DNA from: a virus | Reading direction: 5' to 3' (one strand) | Virus genome (UHGV): UHGV-0312576 | Length of the DNA: 64,000 nucleotides | In this document: in pieces, positions 17,830 to 57,818 of the stretch | Position numbering within the stretch: the first letter of the stretch is position 1 | Layout of the letters: each line of letters opens with the position of its first letter | Program-made: the position numbers and the translations under genes | Notes under the pieces: model-generated | What the model was told of the DNA's origin: nothing | The model's database searches: none | What the model saw: only the letters and a program-made list of their open reading frames with translations

Positions 17830-20800
17830 TTATTTACCCATTAATTCATATCCAATACTTTTGGCAACCCGTTTATCAATATCTCGGGTTTCGTTCTTTA
17901 TGATTGCGGCTACTTCAGTAGCGGACAGTCCAGTACCGTCAATCTGTACAAGTGGGGAGTTAATCGCCACGGGTTGATTTCTAATTATATCAAATTCTGG
18001 TATCTTATAATTAGGCATCGACCGTGCGACAATATCTTCAACAAATCTATTCGGATTTCCGGCGATATCTAAAAGGTTCTGAGTCAAATCACCATTTATT
18101 ACACCATCACCTAATTTTAGTGGGGTCAATAAAGCGCCGTCACTTGGACGTGTAATTATTTCGGGTTTGTTCTCCTGTGTCCATGCAAGCTGATCATGAG
18201 GGATGCGTTTTCTTCCCTTTTTATACCCAATGGTATATCCGAGCTTTCTAACCTGTTCAGCAGTCAGTGGTTTCCCATCATATTTACCATTTTCGTCGAG
18301 GTAGTAGTATCCATCTCCATCCCTGGCCTTAACGGCCATATCAGTAGCCATGACACCATCCTTATCAAGATAGTACCAATCGCCATCTTTGCTCTTGCGC
18401 CATTGGGAAATGACCATTTCACCATTCTCAGGCTCAAAGTATCTCCAATCACCAAAGTCATCTCGCCAGCCAGTCATCATGTACCCATCGTCATCAAAGC
18501 CATATTGTTTTCCATTAATAGTATAAATATCTCCTGAGACATAATCATCATTGGAGTTTCCATACCACCATTTTCCACCTTTGCCTTTTTGCCAACTTCC
18601 CTGGTCAGTTACATCCTCGTAAGCAGAAGAAGAACCTCCACCATATCCACCCATTCCGATCTGATTGAGTAAATCTACCAGTTCATAAAGCGAACTGAAA
18701 TCAAGACCGTCAATTTCATATTGGATATTTGCAACAGCATCACCTATAGCACCGGCACATAAATCAGCTGCCTCACTTCCGGATTCCCACGGTTTGGTAA
18801 GGTCGTCAATGGCTGCAAGACTGTATTCATCTCCATATTGTGTCAAGATACCATAGACAGTAGAGTAGTTATTCTTTACTTGATCAAGGTATTTATTGAT
18901 AGCTGCATTCTGTGCATCCAGGTTCGTGTCAAGCTCATCGGATTCCTTTTGTTTGGATTCTTCAAACGCATTATACTCATCATCCAGAGCATTTTTGCGT
19001 TGCTCAATTTCATGGTCGTACTGTAGCTCATATAATTCGTCCTTCGCATCAGCCAATTGACTTTGTAACTGCAATCTCTGGGCTATATCATCGCGATTGG
19101 TGGAATTATTTAAGGCTGCAATCTGACGTTCCAACTTTGAAATATTATCCTGTTTCTCAGTGATGGATTTTTGATAATCATGCAGATCTTTTTCAGCATC
19201 AAGAGCAGCCTTGGTTTCATCAATGAGTTTCTTCTTTGCATCAATCTCGGCTTGGATTCCCTCTTTTACTAGGGCAAGGATTGCATCTCTAGCTTCTTTA
19301 CTGGACTTTACGGCATTTTCCTGAGCAGAAGTGTAGTCCTGGAGCATCGAATTGTATTCATCTTGGGTGATTAATCCGCTATCTAATGCACCGTCGAGCG
19401 ATTTAATGGCTTCAGCATATTCAGCTGCTTCCTGCTTTGCGTTGGTCATCTGGTGGGCGTATAAAGCAATCTGAGCCAGTCCACGGTCAGTTAAATTACC
19501 AAAATCGTCAACCAGATTAGTATCTCCGATTAGGTCATTCATTGTACTGATGGTTCCATTTATTGAATCCATTGCACTTGTAAAGTCCCTAAGACCCTTA
19601 TACACCAAATCCGTCATTGCATCTTTATATTGCTCTACGGCATCAGCAGCAGAAATCATACTGTTCTTGTACTCTTGTAATTGGTCGTTATATTTTTTCC
19701 ACTCTTCAGAACCTCTTTCTAAATCCATGCGAGACATCTCAGTGGACAGTTCGTTGTAAGCATCTGCATTCTGGCGCGTTAGCTTTAACTGTTTACCAGC
19801 AAGTGAGATATAATCATCAGCATAAATTTCTTCACCTGATTTTTCACGAAGGTCGAGGAGCTGCTTTTCAGTATCAATCATTTTGGACTGGATATCTGTT
19901 GTCTGCTTGAACTGGTTTATGATATTGTCTAATTTGGATAGGTTGAGATCATGAATGGATTTTTGTGTTTCTAAAATTTTAGCATTCGTATCTTGAGCCT
20001 TATCATATAAGTCTTGATATTCCTTAATAACCTTCGCTAGATTTTCATCACCAACAGATTCGATCTCAATTGTACCATTCTGGACTTTATTAATGTATTC
20101 CTGAGAGAGTCCAAGCTTATTCGCATCTTCCATATACTTATCGTGCATTTGCTGGAGAATATGCATTTTTTCAGTAAGTACATCAATTGTAGTATGGGTC
20201 ATAGAGTTCTTATTCCTGTAGCCAACAAGAGAATCGATGTTGTTTTTGAGCTTATCTACCTGGGAATCGATTACACTAATTTTGCGTTCCATCCAGTCAA
20301 ATTCTGTTGGCTCTTTTTTCGATTTATCCTTTGAGCCAGAACCAGATTTTTTAGATGGACTACCTGATATTTTCGGTGCCTGGATAGTTATATTGGATGT
20401 AGCACGATTCATCTGTGCAATCAAATCTTCCATAACAGATTCATAGGTACCGTGTCCATTTGCTACTCTATCAGCAGCGGCAGCAGCGATAGCAGCTGAA
20501 GCAGTATCACCATAGGCAGATGCAAGTTGTCCTAGTTTATCAATTTTACCCTGTACGCTAAGGTCAGTATTATTGTAGGCTATCTCGGCAGCATTTAATT
20601 GATATAAAGATGCTTTTGTTGTTTCGCTGGCTCCACTTTCGTCAAGCAAGGCCCAATAAGCCGTATTTGTAGCATCGGTAAGAGAATATCCGCTGGCAGC
20701 AAGAATCTCACTTGCCTGCGCCAATTCTTCTGTAACGATGGATGACGCATTAGTTATTCCTTGTAATTCTAGTTGAGATACAATAAGGTCACGGTTGGAA

Positions 20801-22419
20801 GTGTTAAGCCCATCCAGACAACCAGACTGGTATATGAATTGAGAGGACAGTGTATCAAATGCTTTTTGAATATCATCTACGGTAGACTCAGACGATGATA
20901 AGACAGATTCGAATGTATTGAATTGTTCCTCAGAAATGCCTAGCTGTTTGTCTGTTTTAAGTAAAGAACTTCGTAAGTCATCTACATCTGATATATCAAA
21001 TGTTATCGCTGTTTTATCTTTGATTTTGCCCTTAAACTCATCGTAAAGGGAAGTAATCTTAGATAACCTATCTATTGTATCGGAAAAAGAGGATAGGTCA
21101 AATATTATAGGTGAATTTGTTGTTACTGACTTTTCAGCTTCGACTAAGGCATATATGTTCTCGCAGGTTTCTTCAGCTGTTTTCCCCGTTTCTTTTAGCA
21201 ACTGATTATATGTCTCATTATTGGTTAACGTTGCTGGGGAGAGGGTTCCGGCCTGAGCCATTGATTCGAGTTCTTTTCGTGCGTTGGAGAATGTATCGGC
21301 GTTCCAGATATCGTCAAAAGCTTTAGATGCGTCCTTTCCACCACCAAAAATATTACTATATGCATCCTGTAAAGAGTTTATATACTCAATGTACGAAGAA
21401 TCTTGACTTGAATCCAAATTCTCTTTATATGTTGTCAAGTCACCGACTGCTGATGTAAGTGTGTCTTTTAGCGACTCTATTGAATTGTCAAGAGTGGTTG
21501 CCTCTTGTTCCATATTCGCTAAAGCATCTTTGTCCGCAAGTGTATAATCCTCTGGATTGGGTTTTGAAATCTTAAAATCAACTATTTTCTTGTCTAATTC
21601 ATTTTTTCGATTTATATATGATTCATAATCAGAAAGTTGCTGTTGAATAATATCTAATTGATTTCCAGAGAAGATATCATATCGAGCTTGACCATAGTGT
21701 GAATTTCCTACATCAACCTGTGACATATCCCAACCAGTATATCTTTGATAAGAACCTTTTTTATCAAGGTATTCAATAGCAGAATCTCGCGCATTTGCTT
21801 CGGCAACATTTTGCATTGCATTTTTTAATTCAAACTGGCGTTCTAATTCGGCAGTAGTATCCTTAAGATTCTGTAATTCTTCCTGCTCAATAAATGTCAG
21901 ATTGGGTTTGTCATTTAGTTCATCAATTCGCGAAGCTGATGTTTTTAATTCGCTATTTATAGAATCTATTGATGACTCTAGTTCGTCTAATTCGGATGCG
22001 GCGTCTATAGCAGTTTCGCGGGCTTCTTCGACCGATACTGTAAAGTAATCAATTGCTTTGACTGTTGCGTAAATACCTAAAGCGGCTCCAGCGGCCCAGA
22101 ATAGTGGATTAGTTGCAATTGCCACACCTAATCCTTTCATCGCTGCGGTGAGTCCGCCTGTGGTTGCGGTGGCTTCTTTTTGAGCGGCCGAGTATGTAGC
22201 AGTTTTAACTGCGGCATCTAATTCTGCTCCAGATAAGCCTTTTGCTGTGAAAATAGCTTTGAGTTGTACTTTCTCTAATGCCATCTGCGAAGTTGCTGCT
22301 TTAACCGACTCTAAAGAAAAATCAGTTAAATCATCTTTTAATTTAGAAACAATTTTATCAAAATTACTACTTGTTATTTTTTCTATTCCAGAAAACACAC
22401 TGTTTATTGATGTTGTCAC
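17830..22419 (-). CDS. tail tape measure protein (TMP)
   Basis: 1529 aa; N-terminal hydrophobic segment (LGVAIATNPLFWAAGAALGIYATV); long coiled-coil body; C-terminal aromatic cell-wall-binding repeats (GDWYYLDKDGVMATDMAV..., GDGYYYLDENGKYDG). Confidence 0.8.
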   Translation of the reverse strand: MTTSINSVFSGIEKITSSNFDKIVSKLKDDLTDFSLESVKAATSQMALEKVQLKAIFTAKGLSGAELDAAVKTATYSAAQKEATATTGGLTAAMKGLGVAIATNPLFWAAGAALGIYATVKAIDYFTVSVEEARETAIDAASELDELESSIDSINSELKTSASRIDELNDKPNLTFIEQEELQNLKDTTAELERQFELKNAMQNVAEANARDSAIEYLDKKGSYQRYTGWDMSQVDVGNSHYGQARYDIFSGNQLDIIQQQLSDYESYINRKNELDKKIVDFKISKPNPEDYTLADKDALANMEQEATTLDNSIESLKDTLTSAVGDLTTYKENLDSSQDSSYIEYINSLQDAYSNIFGGGKDASKAFDDIWNADTFSNARKELESMAQAGTLSPATLTNNETYNQLLKETGKTAEETCENIYALVEAEKSVTTNSPIIFDLSSFSDTIDRLSKITSLYDEFKGKIKDKTAITFDISDVDDLRSSLLKTDKQLGISEEQFNTFESVLSSSESTVDDIQKAFDTLSSQFIYQSGCLDGLNTSNRDLIVSQLELQGITNASSIVTEELAQASEILAASGYSLTDATNTAYWALLDESGASETTKASLYQLNAAEIAYNNTDLSVQGKIDKLGQLASAYGDTASAAIAAAAADRVANGHGTYESVMEDLIAQMNRATSNITIQAPKISGSPSKKSGSGSKDKSKKEPTEFDWMERKISVIDSQVDKLKNNIDSLVGYRNKNSMTHTTIDVLTEKMHILQQMHDKYMEDANKLGLSQEYINKVQNGTIEIESVGDENLAKVIKEYQDLYDKAQDTNAKILETQKSIHDLNLSKLDNIINQFKQTTDIQSKMIDTEKQLLDLREKSGEEIYADDYISLAGKQLKLTRQNADAYNELSTEMSRMDLERGSEEWKKYNDQLQEYKNSMISAADAVEQYKDAMTDLVYKGLRDFTSAMDSINGTISTMNDLIGDTNLVDDFGNLTDRGLAQIALYAHQMTNAKQEAAEYAEAIKSLDGALDSGLITQDEYNSMLQDYTSAQENAVKSSKEARDAILALVKEGIQAEIDAKKKLIDETKAALDAEKDLHDYQKSITEKQDNISKLERQIAALNNSTNRDDIAQRLQLQSQLADAKDELYELQYDHEIEQRKNALDDEYNAFEESKQKESDELDTNLDAQNAAINKYLDQVKNNYSTVYGILTQYGDEYSLAAIDDLTKPWESGSEAADLCAGAIGDAVANIQYEIDGLDFSSLYELVDLLNQIGMGGYGGGSSSAYEDVTDQGSWQKGKGGKWWYGNSNDDYVSGDIYTINGKQYGFDDDGYMMTGWRDDFGDWRYFEPENGEMVISQWRKSKDGDWYYLDKDGVMATDMAVKARDGDGYYYLDENGKYDGKPLTAEQVRKLGYTIGYKKGRKRIPHDQLAWTQENKPEIITRPSDGALLTPLKLGDGVINGDLTQNLLDIAGNPNRFVEDIVARSMPNYKIPEFDIIRNQPVAINSPLVQIDGTGLSATEVAAIIKNETRDIDKRVAKSIGYELMGK

Positions 22420-22501
22420 ATTTTTTAGATTGCCTAGATCTTTAAGATGCGTTATAATAATTGTAATTGTATTTACAAATATAAATAGGAGTTTGTGGAT
22501 T

Positions 22502-22855
22502 ATGACGAAACAAGAAGCAAATGATATTTTTGACTCTAAGGGTGAGGATGCGTTAGATAAATTATTGGATTATATTTTAGTTGAACAAAACTACAACAAA
22601 GCAACAAAATTCATCATGGAAACAGTAGGGTGCGACGAAACCACAGCAAAAGCAATGGTATTAGAAACAATCCCCACTAACACAGAACAACGGCCAATAC
22701 AGCAACAAAATATCCCTAAATGTCCAACCTGCAACTCAACTAACATAGAGAAAATAGGCGGACTAGAACGAGGAGCATCCATAGTGATGTGGGGATTATT
22801 TAGCAAAAAGATTAATAAAACTTTCAAATGTAAAAATTGTGGACATACGTGGTAA
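22502..22855 (+). CDS. zinc-ribbon protein
   Basis: Start at MTKQEAN, with a good RBS (AGGAG). C-terminal CPTC...CKNC zinc ribbon. The track ORF start at 22247 is a spurious 5' extension overlapping the TMP. Confidence 0.45.
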   Translation: MTKQEANDIFDSKGEDALDKLLDYILVEQNYNKATKFIMETVGCDETTAKAMVLETIPTNTEQRPIQQQNIPKCPTCNSTNIEKIGGLERGASIVMWGLFSKKINKTFKCKNCGHTW

Positions 22856-22985
22856 AGTTATAACCAATTTTTATCCTTTTCAATTTTTCTTTTGCACAAG
22901 AAGATTGTAATAGATATCCATATTTTAATATATAAAGTTTTAAATTTTACAATAATTTTAATCACATCCTTTAGGAGAAAATATT

Positions 22986-23840
22986 ATGTCAGTTAATCCA
23001 TTAGTAAAATATGAAATTGCAATTCAGCAATGTTATTCAAAGTATAAAACATTTGTAAATGACAACTCGTTACCCAAATTAATAGTAAAATTTCATAATG
23101 GTAAAAATGAAAATATAGATTATTTGGCACAAATGGAAGCTGAAGATTTATATAATCAAAGATACATATTGCATTTTGATTATATGCTTTTTGCAATAAT
23201 GGATAATACTGAAATTGCATCCATTCTATTTCATGAATTTACACATCTTACAGATTCTTTGTCTTTAAGAGTTTTGCCTTATGCTAAATTTAAAACAGTT
23301 ATGCAATTATATTCTGAAATACATGCTTATGAGATTGAACTGGGTAGGGCGTTAGATTTGCAGAATTTAAATAATATAAATTTTAATACAGTTTTCAAAC
23401 ATTATGATAAAGAAATAAATTTAGGAGATTTTATTCAAAAAAATTCAACAGTCTGTTCTAAAACCCTATCAAATGCAGTAGCTAATTGCAATCCAGAAAC
23501 AATAATCTCAGACTTAAGAAAAGTGAGTAGATATATTGCGAATATTGCATTTGTTCGAAAATATATAAACCCAGAATATACTGTAAACTACATTGAAATT
23601 ATTCCAGAAATTTTTAGGAAAGATATCATTACAATAGCTGAAAGTTACTTATCAGATTCTTTTCGACCGCAAGTTTTTATTCAATCGTATAATAGCATTG
23701 AAGAGTTATATTATACTATGATGATAAGGAAAAAACTAAGAAATAGTTTTTCTCAGAATCAACTTACCGATGATGATTTAGAAAAATTAGATTATAAAAA
23801 TTATAAAAAAGACTTGGATAAATATTTAAATCTTTACTAA
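22986..23840 (+). CDS. HExxH metallopeptidase-like protein
   Basis: 284 aa with the motif ILFHEFTHL (HExxH). Confidence 0.4.
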   Translation: MSVNPLVKYEIAIQQCYSKYKTFVNDNSLPKLIVKFHNGKNENIDYLAQMEAEDLYNQRYILHFDYMLFAIMDNTEIASILFHEFTHLTDSLSLRVLPYAKFKTVMQLYSEIHAYEIELGRALDLQNLNNINFNTVFKHYDKEINLGDFIQKNSTVCSKTLSNAVANCNPETIISDLRKVSRYIANIAFVRKYINPEYTVNYIEIIPEIFRKDIITIAESYLSDSFRPQVFIQSYNSIEELYYTMMIRKKLRNSFSQNQLTDDDLEKLDYKNYKKDLDKYLNLY

Positions 23841-23911
23841 AACTGTAGGGAGTCTTTGCTGTAGGAAAGATTATATGCAAAGAATAAACTTAAGGTTAAG
23901 GAGATATAAAA

Positions 23912-24610
23912 ATGGCGACATGCAAATGCTGTGATAAGAAATTAGGATTACTTGTTGGCTCAAATAAACTTTCAGATGAATATGATGAGCCAATGTGCGA
24001 TGGTTGTTTCTATAAATTTAAAACACAGTTAAATATAGTAGAACAATCTAAAGACAAATATTGTCTTGAAATTAACTATGAAAACGCAGTCGCTACAATT
24101 AAAAAATGTAACTTTTCAGAAGATTCAACTAATTATATATTATCATTTGCTGAGAGTTTAAAACAAACAGTATTAGATAAGTTGCAGCAAGATATTGTTA
24201 ACAAAACAGAAGAAGCCCTTAGAGTTGAAAAGGAAGCTGAACAAAAATTACAATTCAAAAGACTTATGGATAATCATCTGATGACTACGGGTTATTATTT
24301 TGATGGCTACAGAATCAAGGGGTATAATGGCGTTATAAGTGGAAGCGTCGTATTGGGAACAGGCTTTTTATCTGAATTTGGTGCCAGTATAAGTGATTTA
24401 TTTGGTTCTCAGTCAGAGCTGTTTTCTGATAAATTAGAGACAGCAAGAGAATTAGCTCTTAAAAATCTTGTAAAAAAGTCTGCACAGAATTCGGGAAATG
24501 CAATAATCGGAATAGACTTTGACTATATCACATTCTCCAATAATATGATTGGTGTCGTTGCTAATGGGACATCAGTTGTGGTTGAAAAGATTGAGCAAGG
24601 AGAAGGTTAA
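23912..24610 (+). CDS. zinc-ribbon + YbjQ/UPF0145 (DUF74)-like domain protein
   Basis: N-terminal CKCCDKK...CDGC ribbon. The C-terminal half (YFDGYRIKGYNGVISGSVVLG...GNAIIGIDFDY...VVANGTSVV) resembles the YbjQ fold. Confidence 0.4.
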   Translation: MATCKCCDKKLGLLVGSNKLSDEYDEPMCDGCFYKFKTQLNIVEQSKDKYCLEINYENAVATIKKCNFSEDSTNYILSFAESLKQTVLDKLQQDIVNKTEEALRVEKEAEQKLQFKRLMDNHLMTTGYYFDGYRIKGYNGVISGSVVLGTGFLSEFGASISDLFGSQSELFSDKLETARELALKNLVKKSAQNSGNAIIGIDFDYITFSNNMIGVVANGTSVVVEKIEQGEG

Positions 24611-24923
24611 CAAACAATGGTACTGCAATAATTGTAAAAGTGATTTTTAGAAAGACTAGAAATAGTCTCTTTTTAGTAAAATATTTAGATAGAAAAAAGG
24701 AGTAGGTCATTTCTCTCTACTCCTATCAGTTAAAGCATTCAGTTTGCGGTCTCACCATACAAAATGGCTGACAATATAGTTCATCACTAAGGGGTGTATT
24801 CTTAATCTAATATAGATAAAAAGAGACGTAAAAACGTCTCTTTTTATAATAGTGTAGCTGGTCTTACAACTTAAAGTTTGCCCTTCTACAAAGGTCACAT
24901 AAAATAACAGCTAGTCTTACCGC

Positions 24924-25658
24924 TTACACGTGCTCTTCTGTTAAGTTCATCTTATCATACCATTCGAAGAATGTCAATATGTTATTTTTGTTTCTGGATA
25001 TCTCTAATGATAGTATATGTTCTTTAGGATTATATGATACTTTTAAATCATTTCGTCCAATAATTGACCATATTATCCTCTTAATATCATCAAAGCTCAG
25101 GTGTGAATAATCATCTAGCTGTGAAATGATTGCAATATTTCCATTATTATCTTCTGAAATTTCAAAACTATCCAAAGATTCTGCTTTATTATCTATAAAT
25201 AGATTTGAAAACTTAGAATAAGCGCTAGTGTAATTTTGATAAAATTTTTCATAATCATTTAAGCCTTTGTCTACGGATAATTCTAAATATTCAATTATCC
25301 TACGATGAACAGCCTTGATTTCTGATGGCAGTGGTAGTAAAAAAGTTTCGTTATCGACCCATCTATTAGGAATTTTATCTTTATGGATAATCTGCATCTT
25401 GTCAATCCTAGCTATTGAATTAATCGACACTATTCTACAACATAATAATTTCCTATATTTTTTCCAGCGTTCTTTGGTAAACGAAGTAAGAGGAATGATA
25501 TAATACATATCTTTATTTTTTATGCTTCTTAATATTAAAGAGGGATGTTCTCCAGCAAATTCAGCATTGTTTGTACCGTGTAAATCAACCGAATAAATAC
25601 CAGAATTTATAATTTGTTTCATAGGTAGTTCCCCAATCATTAGTAATAATATATCCAT
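24924..25658 (-). CDS. MazF/PemK-like N-terminal domain protein
   Basis: N-terminal segment (GIYSVDLHGTNNAEFAGEHPSLILRSI) resembles the MazF/PemK fold signature, followed by about 180 aa of unknown C-terminal sequence. Confidence 0.3.
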   Translation of the reverse strand: MDILLLMIGELPMKQIINSGIYSVDLHGTNNAEFAGEHPSLILRSIKNKDMYYIIPLTSFTKERWKKYRKLLCCRIVSINSIARIDKMQIIHKDKIPNRWVDNETFLLPLPSEIKAVHRRIIEYLELSVDKGLNDYEKFYQNYTSAYSKFSNLFIDNKAESLDSFEISEDNNGNIAIISQLDDYSHLSFDDIKRIIWSIIGRNDLKVSYNPKEHILSLEISRNKNNILTFFEWYDKMNLTEEHV

Positions 25659-26258
25659 TATATACCAATAATCTATATAATTCTACGGGAACATATGTAC
25701 TTTGTGAGTGGTTGAATATTAGAACTCTGCTAAAAACGACATCATTTTGAAGCAGAATATAATATAAAGCTTGAAGAAATCATGGTAATATATTAATAGG
25801 AAATAGTAACTTGTGTTATGGCTAAGTAACATGTACGAAAATAAATACCCCTCACCTGATGTACCCTCGTGGTAAAGATATCCGCTAAAGGGGGAAGAAA
25901 GAAGATGTTGCTTAATTCTATATTTGCCAATTCAGACATACATAAACTGCTTACTCAATTAGGAGCAGACCTGCACTATATCGGATACCGTTATGAATAT
26001 GCACTACTACTTATAAAAGAAGATGAGCAGTGTATACATTCTGTTACTAAATGATTATATCCAGAAATCGCCAAAAGGTACCAAACATCGTAGCCAATTT
26101 CTTGCAATACTTTTTGCTTATCTTAGCAGAACAAAGAATCTGGAAGAAAACGTAGTATGAACGTATGAGCGGAGGGTTAACCTTGCTGTTGCATTTGTAT
26201 TCATAATTTATAAAGGGATGTGCCTTAGAAGCATATCCCTTTTATATTTACTCGATTT

Positions 26259-26471
26259 TTATTCAGATAACTTAGCAATCGCATCCTCAACGGTAATGCC
26301 TTTTTCTTCGATTGCAGCTAAAAGTTTACTGAGTTTTTCTTCTTTAATAGCAGCTTCAATGCTTTTCTTTTTGCTTTTTAAATCTTTTAATTGTTCCTCC
26401 GTCGATGTGATTTTAATTTCTACATCCTGGAGCTGTTCTTCAAGTGTCATATTCTTTTTTGATCTTGCCAT
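26259..26471 (-). CDS. small coiled-coil protein
   Basis: 70 aa; Lys/Glu heptad pattern. Confidence 0.3.
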   Translation of the reverse strand: MARSKKNMTLEEQLQDVEIKITSTEEQLKDLKSKKKSIEAAIKEEKLSKLLAAIEEKGITVEDAIAKLSE

Positions 26472-26539
26472 AATGATATTCTCCTGTTCTGTATTTTGTC
26501 TTACGAAATTAGTATATCACTATGAGAAGAACGTGTAAA

Positions 26540-27097
26540 TGAAATTTAAAATCCATTCAGTTATATCAAACAGCATAATGGATAATGCTGCTAACAATAT
26601 AGTATTTATGATAACCATAACTGATTAACGACATAACCTTGCCGTGTGGTTCACCACAATAAACTATGTTAGAACATACATTAACAGAACAACAAATATG
26701 GCTTTGGTGTTCTGTGAGGAATCATGCTCGTTGAACTTTCTCAACTCTTAGTACTTTTATCCCGACATTGCTTTCGCAATTGCTATCTATCGGATTATAT
26801 AGTACGACTATACGTGAATTGAGTTAGCTGCCAGTTAGTTTCTTACCCATTTGATTTAATCACGCACTTAGACCGTATTTTTTAGTCATATGCATCTCAC
26901 TCTCGACCATAGTTGTGCCGATTGATTTTTTTACCTTTCGGTTGCATTCACGCCTACCTTTCGATTACGTTGTAGCATAGTGAGCATTAGGGTTTCAGGC
27001 CAATTCGTCCTCTTTTTATTTTGAAACTTTCGTCCTACGGAGTTGATTTTGTCGCCAATATGACATTTCTTCCCACATAGTAGACCACCTTAAAAAT
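26540..27097 (-). ncRNA. candidate large structured RNA or ORF-less intron (unassigned)
   Basis: About 560 bp with no ORF of 60 aa or more on either strand. GC content is visibly higher than the flanks. It lies immediately 3' of the intron-containing TMP-like gene. Confidence 0.25.
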
Positions 27098-27687
27098 CTA
27101 GGCAATTTTTAAGTAGCTCTTATTACAGAGCCAATCGAAGTTTTTAATAAACGCGGTAATACTACCGCCTGTAATTAAAGTTGGTATTACACCAATTTTG
27201 TCAATAACTGTATCCAATACATTAGTTAATGTGATACCGCTATCTACTAATACTTTTAAAAAATCAGAGTCGAAAACTGTAGAAGATAAGGACTGGAACG
27301 CAGCTTCTAGCTGTTGCGTTTTTGCTTCCAAACTTTCCATCCAACGTTCCTGCTCTTGCATTGCGGAACCAGCAGAATTAACAGATGCTTCATAAGCCTT
27401 TTCGATTTGTCCTGACTGGAAAGCCTGAATTAATGCTGAAATTTGGTTTCCGCGCTGTTTACCGGCTATTGTTTCAAGGAGCGCAGCCTGATCAACCTGG
27501 CTGATATCTGACCAAACTTTCGAAATACCTTTTAATATTTCATAAGTTGATTTGAAATTTCCATTCTTGTCAAATATGTTTACAGCTCCATTAGTTTGGT
27601 TAAGAATTTGAGTTTGAATTTTTGATATGGATTCTACATTCTCATATTCTTCACCTAGAGCCTCCAATTCGCCCTTCATGCCACGTA
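27098..27687 (-). CDS. TP901-type tape-measure-like protein, exon 2
   Basis: The frame upstream of the track ATG reads ...VRGMKGELEALGEEYENV..., continuing the TMP core motif interrupted at the end of exon 1. Inferred exon start UA at 27687-27686. Confidence 0.55.
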
Positions 27688-28977
27688 CATTCTGTTACTT
27701 TCAGCATTAAAAATGCCTACTGACCAAATTTAATAATATGGCGACATGTCATTTCTGGCATGTTCTCACGTTTCATTAAATATTTAGATTATAGCGTGAG
27801 ATCAGACTATATATTATCCTCGTTATTATGTAACAGGGGAGATAACTTCAGTGTAAACATTACTGTATACACCCTGTAGTCGTTACGGTTTCTGTTAAAA
27901 TGTAATCTAATTTATTTTCTTTCAATTTCTTAATTAAAAAAGATTCCATATTGTTCTTTTCCCAATATGGAATCCTAATCATTATAATATCATTGCTTTT
28001 ACAGTATTCATTTTTAATTTTATCTCTGATTTGAGTAATTACAAGATGTGATTCTGCTGTTTGCTTTGATGTATATTGAATTGGCATGTAATGCTGCTCT
28101 CCATCATATTCACAAGCAAAGGTTATATTTTTGTTATTATCATAAATAATAAAATCGAATTCTAGCGGTTTTTTATATCTACATTCCTTAAATCTAACTT
28201 TGCGTTCATAATTCAGATTTAAAGATGTTAGTATTCCTGCAAGTTGATCTTCTGATTTACTACTTGAACAAACAGGACATCTAATATGTTCACTTAAAAT
28301 ATTACTTGCACAACTTGACCATTCGTGTCCACACTTTTTGCAACGACATTTGATTTTATCTTTTGATCTGGTATATGATTCTAACAATAATATATCCGGG
28401 TTATCTTTATACACCTTTTTCTTATAGATCTCTGAATTAGTTCTTCTACTTATTCCTCTTTGTGTTATACTACACTCTGGGCAATAATATTTGCCTTGGA
28501 TTAAAGTCTTTGGCATTGTTTCAAATTCAAATCCGCATGTTTTACATCTGCATTTAATTTTTTTCTCGAATCCAATGTAATCAGATAATATCTCGATTTT
28601 CAACATATCTATCTTGTCATAATAATCAGAGATGTCTTTTCCTTTTCCTGCACAATATTTGCACCCATATTTTGCATTTTTCAGGTGGCTCCAGGTTATG
28701 TCTAAATCTCCCTTATCTTTATGAATTTCACATGAGCAAACGATATGAGTATCATGTTTCATACTGTACCTATATTTATAAATTAGTTTCAAATCATTAC
28801 ATTTTTCTTTTATTTCATAATCGGAGGCTTTTTTGCGAATAATAATTCCTTTCCGATTACATTTTAACAGTCTTACCTCGGTCTCTGATGTCCCCATCCT
28901 TTGACCGATATAGTTATCGTCTATGTTTTAATAAGTACATAGCATATTATTTTCATAATATGGAGGCTGATTAGTTA
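27688..28977 (-). mobile_element. group I intron (about 1290 nt) carrying a homing endonuclease ORF
   Basis: Exon 1 ends in U (AGG U) and the intron ends in G (...AACAGAAUG). Intron positions 11-15, GCCUC, can pair with the exon end GAGGU, giving a P1 helix with a U-G wobble at the splice site. Splicing joins SMRL|RGMKGELEAL in frame and restores a contiguous TP901 TMP core. Confidence 0.6.
27860..28897 (-). CDS. intron-encoded homing endonuclease (Vsr-like / EDxHD-type PD-(D/E)xK nuclease with zinc ribbons)
   Basis: 345 aa; three CxxC...CxxC ribbons. C-terminal FDFIIYDNN...FACEYDGEQHY...IIMIRIPYWE resembles the Vsr/DUF559-type nuclease fold found in phage intron endonucleases. Confidence 0.5.
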   Translation of the reverse strand: MGTSETEVRLLKCNRKGIIIRKKASDYEIKEKCNDLKLIYKYRYSMKHDTHIVCSCEIHKDKGDLDITWSHLKNAKYGCKYCAGKGKDISDYYDKIDMLKIEILSDYIGFEKKIKCRCKTCGFEFETMPKTLIQGKYYCPECSITQRGISRRTNSEIYKKKVYKDNPDILLLESYTRSKDKIKCRCKKCGHEWSSCASNILSEHIRCPVCSSSKSEDQLAGILTSLNLNYERKVRFKECRYKKPLEFDFIIYDNNKNITFACEYDGEQHYMPIQYTSKQTAESHLVITQIRDKIKNEYCKSNDIIMIRIPYWEKNNMESFLIKKLKENKLDYILTETVTTTGCIQ

Positions 28978-30508
28978 ACCTCATACTAAGCACTTTAAGA
29001 GCGTTTCCCATTTCTGAAGCATTTTGTGTGATTTCTGTGCCACCAGTAATCATGGCTAAAGTCTGATTTATGTCATTTCCAGCTAAACTCAACGCAGAAG
29101 CAGATTTCTTAAGACCTTCTCCTAAAGCGGCGGAATCCGTTGCGAATTCATTTCCGAGCTTATTTAACGAATCTACAATGGTAATGCTATCTGACGCTTC
29201 GATATTAAAAGATTTCATTGCAGTAACGAGATCGGAAACAGCGGTAGCATCATCAACCTCACCTACGTTTGAATAAATAGAAGATATTTGTGCTAATTCA
29301 CTGGCCTGATCAATATCGAACCCCAATTTGGCCCAATCAGCTGTTTGTTCAACTAGTCCAGATATAGAACGTCCAAGATCTTGAGCTTTAGAAGATGCGT
29401 TATTTAAAAACTTAGTATATTTTTTCTCTGTTTCATCGGTTACTTTGTAGAGACTAGTCATTGAAGTATCTATGTTATATACTTCTTTTGGCATTCTCCT
29501 GAATAAATTCCACATCTCCATAACTGAGCCTGTGGCAATAGCCCAGCCACCAAACTTCTCAACTGCCTGTTTGAATTTATCGGCCCAGGATAATCCTAAT
29601 TTATTCGCTGCACGTAGTTCTGCATCCAGCCCCTTGAACTGCGCCCTGAGATTATCAAAAGTACCTCTTGTCATGTCATCAGCAGAATTAAGCGTATTAA
29701 TCCATTCAATGATTTGCTGCTTAGACTGTTTAGTCATGGCAGTATTTTTTTGAAGGTAATTGTTTAATTCATTGACAAAGGATATACGCCGATTGTCTCC
29801 ATTAGAAATTAGCTCATTGGACTTTTGACCTTTGACTTGAGTAAGAAGATTTTTTGTTTTTTCAAGAAGCTTTTGGTATTCCTTTTCATGCTCTAATCGT
29901 TCATCTCCATCAGAGAATTTCATATCGTTATAAGCAGCTTCTAATTGTTTAAGTGAGGCACTTGCTTGAAGAAATAGTTCTCCACTATCAATTCCAAATT
30001 TACTTAACTGTTGCTGAAACGAATTAATTTGGGTTGAATATTTCTCTGTATCGATTCCGAGCTGAATTTCTTTTGACTTATCTGCAATTCTTTGACGTAA
30101 GTTATATTCTTCCTCAAGCGCCTTATTTACAGCCTTATCCTGGGCAAGTTGATGGCGTTTTTCTTCTGCTTGGCGTGCTTGTTCTGAAGATTCGCGTCCT
30201 TTCGCCATAGCATTAACTAGCTTTTCCTGCTCTTTAACAGCCTGCTTTGCTCCAGATTCAATTTCTTTATAGTACTGTTTGACCCATTGGGTAGCTTGTT
30301 TATCAGAAACAGTATCTCCAAGTATATCTTTGATGATTCCTGATAGCGCTCGAAACTGCTTTTCGATATCAGCCTTACTCTTTGCAAAATTAGAAAAATC
30401 AATATCAGCTTGGATTTCTAATTTTTTTCTTGCTAGATCTTTTTGAACTTTGGTTAAACTACTATCGTCAATAATAGCTTGAAGAAATATTTTGAAATTA
30501 TCGTTCAT
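28978..30508 (-). CDS. TP901-type tape-measure-like protein, exon 1
   Basis: The track ORF 28928..30508 contains a TP901-family core (…SLNKLGNEFATDSAALGEGLKKSASALSLAGNDINQTLAMITGG…GNALKVLSMRL). Inferred 5' splice site after U at 28978; the remaining codons to the track stop are intronic. Confidence 0.6.
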
Positions 30509-30668
30509 TCATGACTCCTTCCATAATTTATTGCAATAAAAAACACCCTCACGAAAGGAGAGTGCTAATAAAAGAAGTATCAGTTTTGACACTGATACTC
30601 TAATTTGTGTTCTGTTTTTAGATGAATGGTGATATAATTTCTTTATTAAAAAAATGAGGTGAAAACAT

Positions 30669-31073
30669 ATGCTCACAAAAGAACAAGAAAATATTTTAAG
30701 ATTCCTGCTATCATTACCGCGAGACACCAATAATCGAATAACAGTAAGCAGAAAGAATTATAATCTTGATTATTCTGAATCCGACTTTATCAATAAACTG
30801 AGAGATATGGAAACTCTCGGCTATTTTGAGATTAAATATTTAACAGGACATCATGATACTTTAAAAACATATATTGAGGTTGTTCCCAATAGAGATACTT
30901 TATCTTATTTTATGGATAAAAAGAATAAGAAATCTCAAAAAAGAAGAGATTTAATCAAGTGGCTAATACCTGTAATTATTTCCTCATTATCATTATTGTG
31001 GAATATACTTAATACGTTGTACTCAACTCACTTAAAAGAATTAATAGACAATCTGACATCTCAAATAAATTAA
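30669..31073 (+). CDS. hypothetical protein with C-terminal TM helix
   Basis: 134 aa; helix-rich N-terminal region, hydrophobic C-terminus (WLIPVIISSLSLLWNIL). Confidence 0.35.
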   Translation: MLTKEQENILRFLLSLPRDTNNRITVSRKNYNLDYSESDFINKLRDMETLGYFEIKYLTGHHDTLKTYIEVVPNRDTLSYFMDKKNKKSQKRRDLIKWLIPVIISSLSLLWNILNTLYSTHLKELIDNLTSQIN

Positions 31074-32250: not shown

Positions 32251-33372
32251 TTAGCAATTCTTAGCCATGTTCTTGAATACTTCCCAACGGGCCTGTACAT
32301 TTTCTTTAGCAGCAGATCCGGAACCACAGAGATTCCTGTACTCTTCATTCTGTTCATAGCTATTGAAAAATTCCTTTGAGAGTACCATGTATTTATCTTT
32401 TCCACCCTTGTACTTAATCACCTTGCACATACCAGCAACAAACATCGGGATAGAGGTCTTTTTTAGATTTGGAATCTTTTCTGTAATTCTCCTATTAATA
32501 GAGTCAGCAGCGTTGATAATTAAGTCAATTACTTCCTGTTTGTTTTCTTGCTCATCAAACCATGTAATGAACGCCTGAATATCCTCATTCCTAAATCCAA
32601 ATTCATGCTCTTTACTGTAACCAGATACTAACATCATGATTTCGAGAATGAGATTACGGTCCTCACTGTTCTTAAAAATGCCGGCGCTGAAAATTCTTTC
32701 CCATAGATTTGGCATTTTCTTTTCTTTCATGACTGGCTTTCCGTCTTTCATAATGACTTCACCAGCACGATTTTTCTTTTCAACTTCATAAGTATATCCA
32801 TCAGCGTTTAATATGCTTAAAATCTGACCATACAATTCATCACTAATATTCACAGAGTTTTTCTGTGCGTTAGTGAGAGGTCTACCAGAATTCTTGCGTC
32901 TAAATAGTTCAGTGATTTCTCTATTAGTTGCCTCATGGTAGAAGTCGATGGGCAATTCATAATAACTAAGTTTGCTCTTTATTTCTTCGTCCAGTTCTTC
33001 AAACTTCTTTCCCCATAATGATTCTGATGGATAGAATGTTTTTCCTTCAATAGTAAAGGGGACATCATCTAACCTTTTTGATAAACGATACTCACCATTT
33101 ACAAAATCGGCAAAATTGGTTATACGCTGAACGCCATCAATGACAGCATTATTTAATTTAATAACATCGCCAGTTGTTTCATCAACCATACTAACGACGA
33201 TTGTAACAGGGTCGATTAGGTATTCACGCAACACACTATCAATCAATTCTGTTTTCTGTAGTGCATTCCACTGTCCAGAAGGACGCTGAAGCGGATGCTT
33301 AAAATTATACTTACCGTTCTTAACTTCTTTAGCCAAAGTAGGAAGACCACGACGTTTTGATTCTGACCTCAT
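32251..33372 (-). CDS. DUF262 (ParB-like nuclease superfamily, DGQQR-type) protein
   Basis: The N-terminal region (KHPLQRPSGQW...LIDSVL...IDGVQRITNF) matches the DUF262 signature (QR..W, DS, DGxQR). No HNH/DUF1524 C-terminal domain is recognisable. Confidence 0.6.
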   Translation of the reverse strand: MRSESKRRGLPTLAKEVKNGKYNFKHPLQRPSGQWNALQKTELIDSVLREYLIDPVTIVVSMVDETTGDVIKLNNAVIDGVQRITNFADFVNGEYRLSKRLDDVPFTIEGKTFYPSESLWGKKFEELDEEIKSKLSYYELPIDFYHEATNREITELFRRKNSGRPLTNAQKNSVNISDELYGQILSILNADGYTYEVEKKNRAGEVIMKDGKPVMKEKKMPNLWERIFSAGIFKNSEDRNLILEIMMLVSGYSKEHEFGFRNEDIQAFITWFDEQENKQEVIDLIINAADSINRRITEKIPNLKKTSIPMFVAGMCKVIKYKGGKDKYMVLSKEFFNSYEQNEEYRNLCGSGSAAKENVQARWEVFKNMAKNC

Positions 33373-50774: not shown

Positions 50775-50850
50775 ACACGCCCCGCAGGATTCGAACCTGC
50801 ATAAACTCGATTAAAAGTCTAGTGCCATACCATTAGGCGACAGACCCATG
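50775..50850 (-). other. tRNA-Lys(UUU)-like element with non-pairing acceptor stem (candidate attP core or tRNA remnant)
   Basis: On the minus strand: D-arm with GG; anticodon stem CUAGA/UCGAG with loop CUUUUAA; perfect T-arm GCAGG-UUCGAAU-CCUGC. The 5' end GGGUCUG cannot pair with the 3' end GGGGCGU. Confidence 0.35.
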
Positions 50851-57569: not shown

Positions 57570-57644
57570 TACAGGAAATGGAATTCGAACCCATAGATCA
57601 CAGAGATTTTGAAACTCCGGCATATGCCATTCTGCTATTCCTGT
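57570..57644 (-). tRNA. tRNA, type I, anticodon loop UUCAAAA (CAA as read); identity uncertain
   Basis: Perfect acceptor ACAGGAA/UUCCUGU; T-arm AUGGG-UUCGAAU-UCCAU; the anticodon stem has a U-U mismatch next to the loop. Confidence 0.5.
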
Positions 57645-57648
57645 ATAA

Positions 57649-57732
57649 TACCTCTGGTGGGAGTCGAACCCACATGTGTCATTGACCCCCAGATCCTTAG
57701 TCTGGTGCATAATCCATTTCTGCTACAGAGGC
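57649..57732 (-). tRNA. tRNA, type II (long variable arm), anticodon AAG as read (Leu-like)
   Basis: Acceptor GCCUCUG/CAGAGGU; D-stem GCA/UGC; anticodon stem CCAGA/UCUGG with loop CUAAGGA; 15-nt variable arm; T-arm GUGGG-UUCGACU-CCCAC. Confidence 0.55.
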
Positions 57733-57736
57733 TTAG

Positions 57737-57818
57737 TGTGCCTAAAGGGATTAGAACCCTTATTCCATATGGAAGCGGGGCTTAAACCCGCTGCGTATAC
57801 CATTTTCGCCATAGGCAC
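57737..57818 (-). tRNA. tRNA-Leu(UAA), type II
   Basis: Perfect acceptor GUGCCUA/UAGGCAC plus discriminator A; anticodon stem GCGGG/CCCGC with loop UUUAAGC; variable arm UUCCAUAUGGAA; T-loop UUCUAAU. Confidence 0.65.

What the first reader, a model, noticed from the sequence alone, without database searches (positions are those of the whole stretch)
27098..30508. TP901-type tape-measure-like gene split by a group I intron that carries a homing endonuclease
ORF 28928..30508 ends in the middle of a recognisable TP901-family TMP core (...GNALKVLSMRL). The continuation of that core (RGMKGELEALGEEYENV...GKQRGNQISALIQ) is found in the frame just upstream of ORF 27098..27679. Splice sites are proposed after the U at 28978 and after the G at 27688 (minus strand). 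They obey group I rules: exon 1 ends in U and the intron ends in G. Intron nucleotides 11-15 (GCCUC) can pair with the exon end GAGGU to form P1 with a U-G wobble at the cleavage site. Splicing yields the in-frame junction SMRL|RGMKG and a 707-aa protein. The 1290-nt intervening sequence contains a free-standing 345-aa endonuclease ORF.
Basis: partly seen in the sequence, partly recalled or inferred. Interest (0 to 1): 0.7.

Follow-up and report, generated by a model that had tools for sequence, protein, structure and literature searches.

The report
Group I intron in tape-measure gene

Summary
A 99.8%-identical sequence from another sample (L001) lacks exactly the 1290 nt at 28977..27688. Uninterrupted homologues read SMR[LIV]RGMKGEL without a gap.

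The insert belongs to a family with at least 118 members in phage contigs. 37 of the 96 recovered in full have no ORF. On 36 sequences the P1-P9 structure, including the P3/P7 pseudoknot, is 95% paired, against 31-38% in slid controls. 52 of 62 pairs show compensatory changes. The 345-aa endonuclease ORF sits in the P6 loop, closed by a perfect 16-bp helix. Rfam RF00028 misses the family (14.8 bits against a threshold of 50).

Group I introns in prophage tape-measure genes are already published (Tourasse & Kolstø 2008). This is therefore a new member of a known kind.

One correction: the product is not 707 aa. The exon 2 tail runs into a second intervening sequence, 27133..22450 (4684 nt). It has a conserved 5' core, and its guide sequence covaries with both flanking exons. 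It carries variable cargo genes on both strands. Removing both inserts gives one 2234-aa protein. Splicing of either insert is inferred, not shown.

The parts
28978..30508 (-). Tape-measure (TMP) exon 1; its last 5 nt, GAGGU (28982..28978), form the 5' strand of P1
   Evidence: ORF and Pfam PF10145 positions 2-148. The boundary is fixed by the empty-site allele L001.
27688..28977 (-). Intron 1: a 1290-nt group I intron ending in the terminal G (omega-G) at 27688
   Evidence: Absent exactly in L001 and L002. Member of a family of at least 118 loci. Structure covariation.
28963..28967 (-). Internal guide sequence GCCUC (3' strand of P1)
   Evidence: Covaries with the exon end: window GAGGU/GCCUC; L043 GAGAU/GUCUC; L046 and L047 AAGGU/GCCUU; many more in the family.
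28921..28962 (-). P2 (CAUAUUAU-GAAA-AUAAUAUG) and P2.1 hairpins
   Evidence: Read from the sequence. Hairpins at the same place in L043, L046 and L047 have different sequences.
28912..28918 (-). P3 5' strand GAUAACU; it pairs with AGUUAUC at 27847..27841
   Evidence: 5 of 7 pairs change on both sides; those 5 and the invariant C-G pair have no unpaired cell; the remaining pair is unpaired in 11 of 36 sequences (95.6% paired overall). The helix is pseudoknotted with P7 (helix 1).
28879..28907 (-). P4 (CGGUC/GACCG) enclosing P5 (GAUG-GGGA-CAUC). The endonuclease start codon at 28897..28895 lies inside P5
   Evidence: P4 is 100% paired with 3 covarying pairs; all 5 P5 pairs covary (helices 2 and 3).
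28855..28870 (-). P6 5' strand CUGUUAAAAUGUAAUC, inside ORF codons 10-15
   Evidence: Perfect 16-bp complement of 27907..27892. About 39 ORF-containing relatives have a 9-20 bp helix of different sequence in this part of the intron, most at exactly this position.
27860..28897 (-). 345-aa homing-endonuclease-like ORF in the P6 loop
   Evidence: Pfam DUF4379 passes its cut-off; DUF2726 is below its cut-off (21 bits against 24.7). phrog_559, 9084 and 7140 (endonuclease annotations) match. PF05265 (DUF723) is precomputed for its homologues. Weak fold hits to Vsr-like and DUF559-like nucleases.
27892..27907 (-). P6 3' strand GAUUACAUUUUAACAG, at the 3' end of the ORF coding sequence
   Evidence: coordinates read.
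27805..27881 (-). Catalytic core: P7 5' strand GACUA (27881..27877), P7.1 (27873..27850, spanning the ORF stop codon), P3 3' strand (27847..27841), P8 (27840..27817), J8/7 UAAUAUA, P7 3' strand UAGUC (27809..27805)
   Evidence: P7 is 100% paired with 3 covarying pairs; 8 of 9 P7.1 pairs covary. The blocks match the classic R and S consensus in RF00028.
27689..27800 (-). P9, P9.1 (loop CCAGAAAUGA), P9.2, GUCAGUA, P9.3, and the tail GAAAGUAACAGAAU that precedes the terminal G
   Evidence: Helices 8-11 are 97.7-100% paired, each with 4-5 covarying pairs.
27134..27687 (-). TMP exon 2 (RGMKGEL...AFIKNFD)
   Evidence: Amino-acid conservation among homologues stops at KN(F/Y/V)(D/G).
22450..27133 (-). 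Intron 2: a 4684-nt putative group I intron with cargo genes. Exon 2 ends in U (27134) and the intron ends in G (22450)
   Evidence: Seven loci with both ends known all end in G just before CA(A/U)CUUAAAG.
26672..27133 (-). Conserved ribozyme-like core of intron 2: guide GUC (27085..27083); P10 guide AAGGUG (27091..27086); P3 GAGGA/UCCUC; P4; P5; P6; P7 GAGCA/UGUUC; P8
   Evidence: The 12-sequence alignment A3 is 94.9% paired, against 38-47% in slid controls. The last exon codon covaries with the guide: GAU/GUC, GGU/GCC, GCU/GGC. No Rfam hit.
22502..22855 (+). Antisense zinc-ribbon gene next to the 3' splice site of intron 2. A promoter-like site at 22430..22458 overlaps the splice junction
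   Evidence: Conserved next to the 3' end in L213, L222, L171, L168, L166, L176 and L180. Promoter scan.
22986..26471 (.). Variable cargo of intron 2: 70-aa ORF (26471..26259, minus); PemK-like 244 aa (25658..24924, minus); YbjQ-domain 232 aa (23912..24610, plus); 284 aa (22986..23840, plus). Minus-strand terminator-like hairpins lie near 26243-26212, 24843-24815 and 24722-24690
   Evidence: The cargo differs in L041, L166, L168, L171 and L222.
17830..22449 (-). TMP exon 3. It begins CAU CUU AAA GAU (HLKDLGNL), 10 codons upstream of the GTG that the ORF caller reports
   Evidence: No start codon lies upstream. LKDLGNL is conserved with synonymous changes in L171 and five other loci. phrog_4211 positions 955-1101 match here.

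Best explanation
The 1290-nt insert at 28977..27688 (minus strand) is a mobile group I intron, subgroup IA-like, in the conserved core of a TP901-type tape-measure gene of an SPbeta-like phage or prophage of gut Clostridia.

Inferred mechanism:
- The exon end GAGGU pairs with the guide GCCUC, with a U-G wobble at the cleavage site.
- The 16-bp P6 helix closes off the 1-kb endonuclease ORF, so the two ribozyme halves can assemble P3-P9.
- A free guanosine attacks after U28978.
- The freed exon 1 then attacks after the terminal G at 27688, giving ...SMRL-RGMKG....
- The 345-aa protein (tandem treble-clef zinc fingers plus a probable Vsr-like PD-(D/E)xK nuclease domain) presumably cuts intron-less alleles. 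Repair copies the intron in.

The 4 nt before the insertion site differ from the empty allele at 3 positions (CGTG to AGGT). This creates the required U and the match to the guide sequence.

The gene carries a second, larger intervening sequence (27133..22450), most likely also a group I intron. Its ribozyme core is at the 5' end and cargo genes lie between the core and the 3' splice site. Both inserts must be removed to give the 2234-aa tape-measure protein.

Shown by sequence: the precise boundaries, the empty site for intron 1, and the structure covariation. Inferred: splicing itself, homing, and the nuclease activity.
For: Intron 1:
- Exact empty-site alleles exist: L001 at 99.8% identity and L002 at 89%.
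- Ten uninterrupted homologues align across the junction without a gap.
- Closer endonuclease relatives sit in the same arrangement in other TMP genes, with homologous flanks and P1 covariation.
- A 29-specified-base motif from the 3' region finds at least 118 viral loci. 96 have both halves; 37 of those lack an ORF.
- About 39 ORF-containing members have a different 9-20 bp P6 clamp helix in this part of the intron, most at exactly this position.
- The proposed P3-P9 structure is 95.0% paired on 36 sequences, against 30.8-37.5% when partners are slid. 52 of 62 pairs change on both sides. 0 of 500 shuffles reach the observed values.
- The R and S core motifs line up with RF00028 in a sub-threshold alignment.
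- 76 of 90 distinct downstream flanks in the family are TMP core sequence.
- Published precedent exists: Tourasse & Kolstø 2008, PMC2504315.

Intron 2:
- The middle base of the last exon codon covaries in three states with the guide sequence, with an invariant U-G.
- Exon 3 pairs with the P10 guide, 5-6 of 6 bp, in all 7 loci where both ends are known. All 7 end in G.
- Exon 3 coding extends 10 codons upstream of any start codon.
- The doubly spliced protein matches phrog_4211 positions 575-1101 as a single stretch of 325.7 bits.
Against: - No RNA data, so splicing is not shown for either insert.
- RF00028 gives no hit in the window.
- Distant relatives of the endonuclease are often free-standing.
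- The nuclease fold assignment is weak. No Foldseek E-value reaches 0.001.

Specific to intron 2:
- P1 is only 3 bp.
- P3 and P7 are invariant, so they offer no covariation test.
- Only two clades are sampled.
- No intron-less allele was found.
- Three terminator-like hairpins lie on the sense strand inside it.
- No helix above chance brings the distant 3' splice site to the core.
Confidence: 0.9

Rival explanations
1. A free-standing homing endonuclease gene has split the TMP gene. No splicing occurs, and the two halves are made as separate polypeptides. The second would start at the conserved Met of RGMKG (ATG at 27679).
For: - An in-frame ATG lies 8 nt after the insert.
- Distant relatives of this endonuclease are often intergenic, for example next to tRNA genes, with no RF00028 hit nearby.
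- RF00028 is negative in the window.
Against: - 252 nt of non-coding flank, plus both ends of the ORF, form a covarying P1-P9 structure shared with ORF-less relatives.
- The exon end covaries with the guide sequence.
- No Shine-Dalgarno sequence precedes ATG 27679.
- PF10145 would be cut in mid-domain.
Confidence: 0.04
2. The phage or prophage is defective. The insertions have inactivated the TMP gene, and the intron-like RNA is a decaying relic that no longer splices.
For: - There are no expression data.
- The window copy has single mismatches in P5, P7.1, P8 and P9.2.
- L001 carries a 116-nt deletion in exon 2 relative to the window.
Against: - All three exons are open and in frame.
- P3, P4, P6, P7 and P9 are fully paired in the window copy.
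- The endonuclease is full length and 98% identical to another copy.
- Flanking DNA is 99.8% identical to the empty allele, so the insertion is recent.
Confidence: 0.05
3. This rival concerns the second interruption only. The TMP of this phage lineage is naturally encoded as two genes separated by a hotspot for accessory genes. The conserved 460-nt RNA after the first gene is some other non-coding element, and the C-terminal protein is translated on its own.
For: - No homologue spans the junction uninterrupted.
- In 5 of 7 loci the last three intron bases are AUG or UUG, in frame with exon 3.
- Sense-strand terminator-like hairpins and antisense genes lie inside the region.
- Rfam finds nothing.
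Against: - Three-state covariation links the last exon 2 codon to the GUC/GCC/GGC block, with an invariant U-G.
- The adjacent 6 nt pair with the first 6 nt of exon 3 in all 7 loci, including one compensated change.
- The window and L168 have ACG and UCG rather than a start codon, and no locus has a Shine-Dalgarno sequence.
- The P, Q, R and S blocks occur in group I order (compared).
- phrog_4211 runs straight across the junction.
Confidence: 0.2

Closest known systems
Group I introns (IA1/IA2) in tape-measure genes of Bacillus cereus-group prophages: TMP-IVS1, IVS2 and IVS3 (Tourasse & Kolstø 2008, NAR 36:4529, PMC2504315)
   Same: - Same host gene type (prophage TMP).
- Several insertion sites within the same gene.
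- Related introns retarget by changing P1 and the guide sequence.
- Some copies carry endonuclease genes and some do not.
- IA-type core with a P7.1 region and an extended P9.
   Different: - Different hosts: gut Lachnospiraceae and other Clostridia.
- No nucleotide similarity to anything in the GenBank phage collection, by megablast on the whole region or blastn on the intron's 3' part.
- Rfam RF00028 does not reach threshold.
- The endonuclease is of the DUF723/DUF4379 type.
- Direct sequence relatedness to the Bacillus introns was not tested.
Phage T4 td intron (group IA2, endonuclease ORF looped out of P6)
   Same: The ORF is looped out of a peripheral helix of the P4-P6 domain. The intron lies in a protein-coding phage gene, and an in-frame stop follows soon after the 5' splice site. 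This comparison rests on my own knowledge of td and was not tested here.
   Different: The endonuclease family differs (T4 I-TevI is GIY-YIG), and so do the host gene and the host organisms.
IStrons: a group I ribozyme fused to an IS200/IS605 or IS607 element (Tourasse et al. 2014, PMC4227781). Relevant to intron 2
   Same: The ribozyme core is at the 5' end. Kilobases of unrelated genes lie after P9, before a distant 3' splice site.
   Different: No transposase or TnpB is present; Pfam, NCBIfam and PADLOC found none. The cargo varies among relatives, lies on both strands, and includes a conserved antisense zinc-ribbon gene. The element sits at one fixed site in one gene rather than in dispersed copies.
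Free-standing homing endonuclease genes that split phage genes (e.g. mobE in Aeh1 nrdA)
   Same: An endonuclease gene lies between two halves of an essential phage gene. This comparison is from my own knowledge.
   Different: Here a covarying ribozyme surrounds the ORF, and the exon end pairs with a guide sequence.

Membership tests
Group I intron (intron 1) | 5' exon ends in U, which forms a U-G wobble with an internal guide sequence (P1) | tested here: met
   GAGGU/GCCUC in the window. Compensatory variants occur in L043, L046, L047 and many family members.
Group I intron (intron 1) | Intron ends in G (the terminal omega-G), and its removal restores the reading frame | tested here: met
   G27688; the junction is in frame. 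The empty-site allele L001 defines the same boundaries to within a 2-nt TA repeat. Most family members have G in third place after AACAGA.
Group I intron (intron 1) | Conserved core of P3-P9, with the P3/P7 pseudoknot and the P4-P6 domain | tested here: met
   62 pairs in 11 helices are 95% paired, and 52 have changes on both sides. Slid controls give 31-38%.
Group I intron (intron 1) | Match to the curated covariance model Rfam RF00028 at its gathering score (50 bits) | tested here: not met
   No hit in the window, even at E up to 10. The ORF-less relative L146 scores 14.8 bits, E 0.25. The same model does find other introns in L089 and L076. I read this as a sensitivity limit of the model, because the structure test is met.
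Group I intron (intron 1) | Guanosine-dependent self-splicing | not testable with these tools
   Needs in vitro transcription with GTP and Mg2+, or RNA-seq.
Subgroup IA (IA1/IA2) | Extra P7.1/P7.2 hairpins between P7 and the P3 3' strand, and an extended P9 domain | tested here: inconclusive
   One covarying hairpin (P7.1) lies between P7 and the P3 3' strand, and four hairpins follow P7. A separate P7.2 was not identified.
Homing endonuclease, PD-(D/E)xK / Vsr-like type | Restriction-endonuclease-like catalytic fold with conserved acidic and His residues | tested here: inconclusive
   - Invariant D248, E263, E267 and H269 in 28 homologues.
- Model pLDDT 83.7.
- Best fold hits are 3hrl (TM-score 0.67) and Vsr 1cw0 (0.57), but no E-value reaches 0.001.
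- No PDB match by sequence.
- Some databases label the family 'HNH'; that was not supported here.
TP901-family tape measure protein | PF10145 core, followed by hydrophobic segments and a long helical region | tested here: met
   PF10145 scores 69.8 bits on exon 1. The spliced protein matches phrog_4211 positions 575-1101 in one stretch.
Group I intron (intron 2, 27133..22450) | U-G at the 5' splice site, P1 and P10 formed by one contiguous guide, and a terminal G | tested here: met
   Invariant U-G; the middle P1 pair is AU in 6, CG in 3 and GC in 3 sequences. P10 forms 5-6 of 6 bp, and G ends the intron, in all 7 loci.
Group I intron (intron 2, 27133..22450) | Covarying P3-P9 core, or a match to RF00028 | tested here: inconclusive
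   P2, P4, P5, P6 and P8 covary, but P3 and P7 are invariant and only two clades are sampled. RF00028 gives no hit even on 551 nt at E up to 10.
IStron | IS200/IS605 or IS607 transposase and/or TnpB genes downstream of P9 | tested here: not met
   No transposase families among the cargo proteins. Only a faint IS1-type zinc-finger similarity, below cut-off.

The most novel reading that the evidence does not exclude
The second interruption (27133..22450) is a group I intron fixed in the tape-measure gene of a lineage of SPbeta-like gut phages. The stretch between its ribozyme core and its 3' splice site acts as a landing pad for accessory genes.

- Intron length is about 1.1 kb in L222, 1.8 kb in L168 and L171, 3.5 kb in L166, 4.7 kb in the window, and about 6.7 kb in L041.
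- The cargo lies on both strands and has its own promoter-like and terminator-like signals.
- A conserved antisense zinc-ribbon gene lies at the 3' end, and its promoter-like site overlaps the splice junction.

An essential virion protein would then depend on transcribing through, and splicing across, a variable gene island. Alternatively it would depend on trans-splicing of two transcripts.
Probability: 0.55. Interest if true: 0.65.

Novelty: new member of a known kind. Interest (0 to 1): 0.4.

Why it matters
For the finding as given, the value is practical.

- It documents a large family of group I introns, with at least 118 copies in one viral collection and 28 prophage hits. The family targets a handful of conserved sites in tape-measure genes of gut phages.
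- The standard Rfam model does not detect this family.
- As a result, TMP genes in these phages are routinely annotated as fragments. Many 195-201-aa 'exon 2 only' proteins and ~660-690-aa 'TMP' entries are in the databases.
- A dedicated covariance model would repair these annotations and allow correct tail-length predictions.

The second interruption is more interesting. If it splices, it shows that a group I intron can carry kilobases of exchangeable non-mobility genes inside an essential structural gene. That would link intron biology with phage accessory-gene hotspots.

Tried and rejected
- **Rfam.** I scanned the whole window at gathering threshold, then 27400-29300, 22200-27300 and 26600-27150 at E up to 10. 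No intron family was found.
- **BLAST against GenBank phages.** Megablast of 26000-31000 and blastn of the intron 3' part both found nothing.
- **Context of distant endonuclease relatives.** 33 viral loci were fetched; the 15 I scanned (plus L007) gave no RF00028 hits, and several sit next to tRNA genes. Family membership of the ORF is therefore not evidence for an intron.
- **PDB sequence search for the endonuclease.** No real match.
- **An early wrong pairing.** I first paired ACUAUAU with AUAUAGU as P3. I dropped this once GACUR/YAGUC (P7) and GAUAACU/AGUUAUC (P3) were seen to covary.
- **P10 for intron 1.** No convincing pairing between exon 2 and the nucleotides 5' of the guide sequence (by reading the sequence).
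- **Automated P1 finder.** It picks spurious helices in some loci, including the window, so I used it only for the clear cases.
- **Clamp helix for intron 2.** I looked for a long-range helix bringing the 3' splice site to the core. Nothing exceeded shuffled controls.
- **Uninterrupted exon 2/exon 3 homologue.** The protein search gave at most 64% coverage. A DNA pattern for the predicted junction hit two unrelated genes only.
- **Cargo proteins against PADLOC.** No hits passing a meaningful threshold.
- **Group II intron, intein, DNA rearrangement.** There is no reverse transcriptase, no GUGYG start or domain V, stop codons lie in all frames, and the cargo holds no recombinase.


Full report
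**1. The observation**

On the minus strand, ORF 30508..28928 ends ...GNALKVLSMRL and then reads TNQPPYYENNMLCTY before a stop. The frame upstream of ORF 27679..27098 reads RGMKGELEALGEEY. Pfam PF10145 (phage minor tail / TP901 TMP core) matches profile positions 2-148 in the first ORF and 158-201 in the second. phrog_4211 matches 556-784 and 788-950. One domain has therefore been cut in two by the 1290 nt at 28977..27688, which contain a 345-aa ORF (28897..27860).

**2. Intron 1 is a discrete, recently inserted element**

A search with the fused core found 633 homologues. The best cover 97-100% of the query. Ten of them align over SMR[LIV]RGMKGEL with no gap.

Two contigs lack exactly the 1290 nt. 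L001 (NCBI GCA_002924505.1) is 99.8% identical to the window, and L002 is 89% identical.

L001 reads ...AGTATGCGTG|TACGTGG. The window reads ...AGTATGAGGT|(intron)...AACAGAATG|TACGTGG. Three of the four bases before the insert differ. The change creates the U at -1 and the complement of the intron's GCCUC. A TA repeat leaves three formally possible boundary pairs.

**3. It is a group I intron**

Rfam did not help. There is no RF00028 hit in the window. Distant relatives of the endonuclease are often intergenic.

Closer relatives of the endonuclease (59%, 47% and 46% identity) sit in the same arrangement inside other TMP genes (L043, L046, L047). Their non-coding flanks are homologous to the window's. 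P1 covaries with the exon:

| Locus | Exon end | Guide sequence |
|---|---|---|
| window | GAGGU | GCCUC |
| L043 | GAGAU | GUCUC |
| L046, L047 | AAGGU | GCCUU |

In L046 and L047 the insertion site lies 15 nt upstream of the window's.

96 members have both halves. 37 of these are ORF-less introns, with the two halves 183-275 nt apart. 59 carry inserts, with the halves 0.8-2.1 kb apart.

In about 39 distinct ORF-containing members, a perfect 9-20 bp helix of unrelated sequence closes the insert, in most of them at exactly the same position. In the window this helix is CUGUUAAAAUGUAAUC / GAUUACAUUUUAACAG, both strands lying within the ORF's coding sequence. This is P6.

The remaining structure follows the group I order:

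- P3: GAUAACU/AGUUAUC
- J3/4: AUAU
- P4: CGGUC/GACCG
- P5: a GNRA-capped hairpin that holds the ORF's AUG
- P6
- J6/7
- P7: GACUA/UAGUC
- P7.1
- P8
- J8/7: UAAUAUA
- four P9-type hairpins
- tail: GAAAGUAACAGAAUG

On 36 sequences (alignment A2) the 62 pairs are 95.0% paired, against 30.8-37.5% when the partners are slid. 52 pairs have changes on both sides. 0 of 500 shuffles reach the observed values. The P3/P7 pseudoknot is included in this test.

The P7 strands with their flanks match the classic R and S consensus seen in RF00028 (GUUCAaAGACUA and AAGAUAUAGUC). RF00028 scores only 14.8 bits (E 0.25) on the ORF-less member L146. In the same run it finds unrelated group I introns in L089 and L076. 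The family is real but lies outside the model's reach.

**4. Distribution and precedent**

76 of 90 distinct downstream flanks in the family hit the window's TMP core. The insertion sites cluster at positions equivalent to window residues ~453, ~502, 511-514 and 562. Prophage copies are mostly in Lachnospiraceae and other Clostridia. Related phages encode YomU, YomV, YomW, YomN and YonB homologues, which marks them as SPbeta-like.

Group I introns of subgroups IA1 and IA2 at three sites of prophage TMP genes have already been described. That work also showed P1 retargeting between sites (PMC2504315). The finding is therefore a new member of a known kind.

**5. The endonuclease**

Pfam gives DUF4379 (treble-clef zinc finger) above its cut-off and DUF2726 below it. 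The PHROG matches carry annotations such as 'homing endonuclease' and 'intron encoded nuclease'. PF05265 (DUF723) is precomputed for its homologues.

An AlphaFold model (pLDDT 83.7) gives weak but mutually consistent fold hits to Vsr (1cw0), a DUF559-like protein (3hrl) and TnsA. None reaches E of 0.001. A PD-(D/E)xK-type nuclease is likely but not shown.

**6. The product is not 707 aa**

Homologous 'TMPs' all stop at KN(F/Y/V)(D/G), with divergent tails after it. P0001 reads the same downstream DNA in a different frame. ORF 22419..17830 (1529 aa) matches phrog_4211 positions 955-1101, directly after the end of exon 2 at position 950.

Upstream of its GTG the frame stays open, with no start codon, and encodes HLKDLGNL. 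The segment LKDLGNL is conserved in L171 and five other loci with synonymous changes.

The ~460 nt after exon 2 are conserved as RNA in 12 loci from two clades.

| Last exon 2 codon | Guide block |
|---|---|
| GAU | GUC |
| GGU | GCC |
| GCU | GGC |

The U-G at the splice site is invariant. The six bases just 5' of that block (AAGGUG or AAGUUG) pair with the first six bases of exon 3 (CAUCUU or CAACUU). All seven introns with both ends known end in G.

P2, P4, P5, P6 and P8 covary. The alignment is 94.9% paired, against 38-47% in slid controls. Blocks resembling the P, Q, R and S elements of a bona fide intron occur in the canonical order. Removing 27133..22450 as well gives a single 2234-aa ORF. 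That protein matches phrog_4211 positions 575-1101 in one stretch.

**7. Caveats on intron 2**

- P1 is only 3 bp.
- P3 and P7 never vary, so they cannot be tested by covariation.
- Rfam is silent even on a 551-nt search.
- No intron-less allele was found.
- No helix above chance brings the 3' splice site to the core.
- Three terminator-like hairpins lie on the sense strand inside the intron.

Read-through of those hairpins is conceivable. In SPbeta the late genes are transcribed as one operon by the YonO polymerase (PMC5467207). The link between the window's 871-aa ORF and YonO is weak.

The cargo differs between relatives, and intron length ranges from about 1.1 to about 6.7 kb. An antisense zinc-ribbon gene next to the 3' splice site is conserved. 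The closest known layout is the IStron, but no transposase is present.

**8. Verdict**

Two results go beyond the original finding. The family is invisible to Rfam, and there is a probable second, cargo-bearing intron in the same gene. Splicing of either element remains an inference from sequence.

Noticed in passing
window 22450..27133 (minus strand): A second, 4684-nt intervening sequence in the same TMP gene. Its 5' ribozyme-like core is conserved, its guide sequence covaries with both flanking exons, and it carries five cargo ORFs on both strands.
   Followed up: yes
window 22502..22855 (+); L222 1391..1720; L171 1628..1936: A small zinc-ribbon protein gene lies antisense to the TMP gene. 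It is conserved next to the 3' splice site of intron 2 in every locus where that end is known. A sigma-70-like promoter site (22430..22458) overlaps the splice junction.
   Followed up: partly
L041 11776..13350 and L042 (TMP 84% identical to the window): A different insert sits at ETIAGK|QRGNQ of the same TMP core. It has about 450 nt of structured 5' RNA and a 312-aa DUF723-type ORF. It also fits the group I rules: GCAGGU|AAAUUUUGCCUGU ... CAUAGCG|AAACAGCGC.
   Followed up: partly
L167 5384..7476: A 2.1-kb insertion splits the exon 2 homologue between positions equivalent to exon 2 residues 121 and 122. Probably yet another intron site in this gene.
   Followed up: no
L089 4194-4537; L076 5441-5791: RF00028-positive group I introns (71.9 and 65.9 bits) lie a few kb from the TMP-family introns in the same phage contigs. 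These phages therefore carry several unrelated introns.
   Followed up: no
protein hits P0252-P0259 and many others: Public databases hold many 195-201-aa proteins that are 'exon 2 only', and ~660-690-aa 'tape measure proteins' truncated at KNxG. These are annotation artefacts caused by unrecognised introns.
   Followed up: partly
window 58197..60812 (minus): An 871-aa ORF with no Pfam match. Its only annotated relative is an 'RNA-dependent RNA polymerase' of Enterocloster phage PMBT24. It may be a YonO-like single-chain RNA polymerase.
   Followed up: partly
window 32251..33372 (minus) and 30669..31073 (+): A GmrSD_N / NsnA-like (DUF262) gene and a small opposite-strand ORF lie just upstream of the TMP gene. 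L005 has a GmrSD_N gene inside its post-TMP cargo region.
   Followed up: no
window 57570..57818 and 50784..50838 (minus): A cluster of three tRNA genes, plus one partial tRNA match.
   Followed up: no
L001 2013/2014, compared with window 27375..27260: The otherwise 99%-identical empty-site contig lacks 116 nt of exon 2, which truncates its called protein at ...EASVN. This is either a deletion or an assembly artefact.
   Followed up: no
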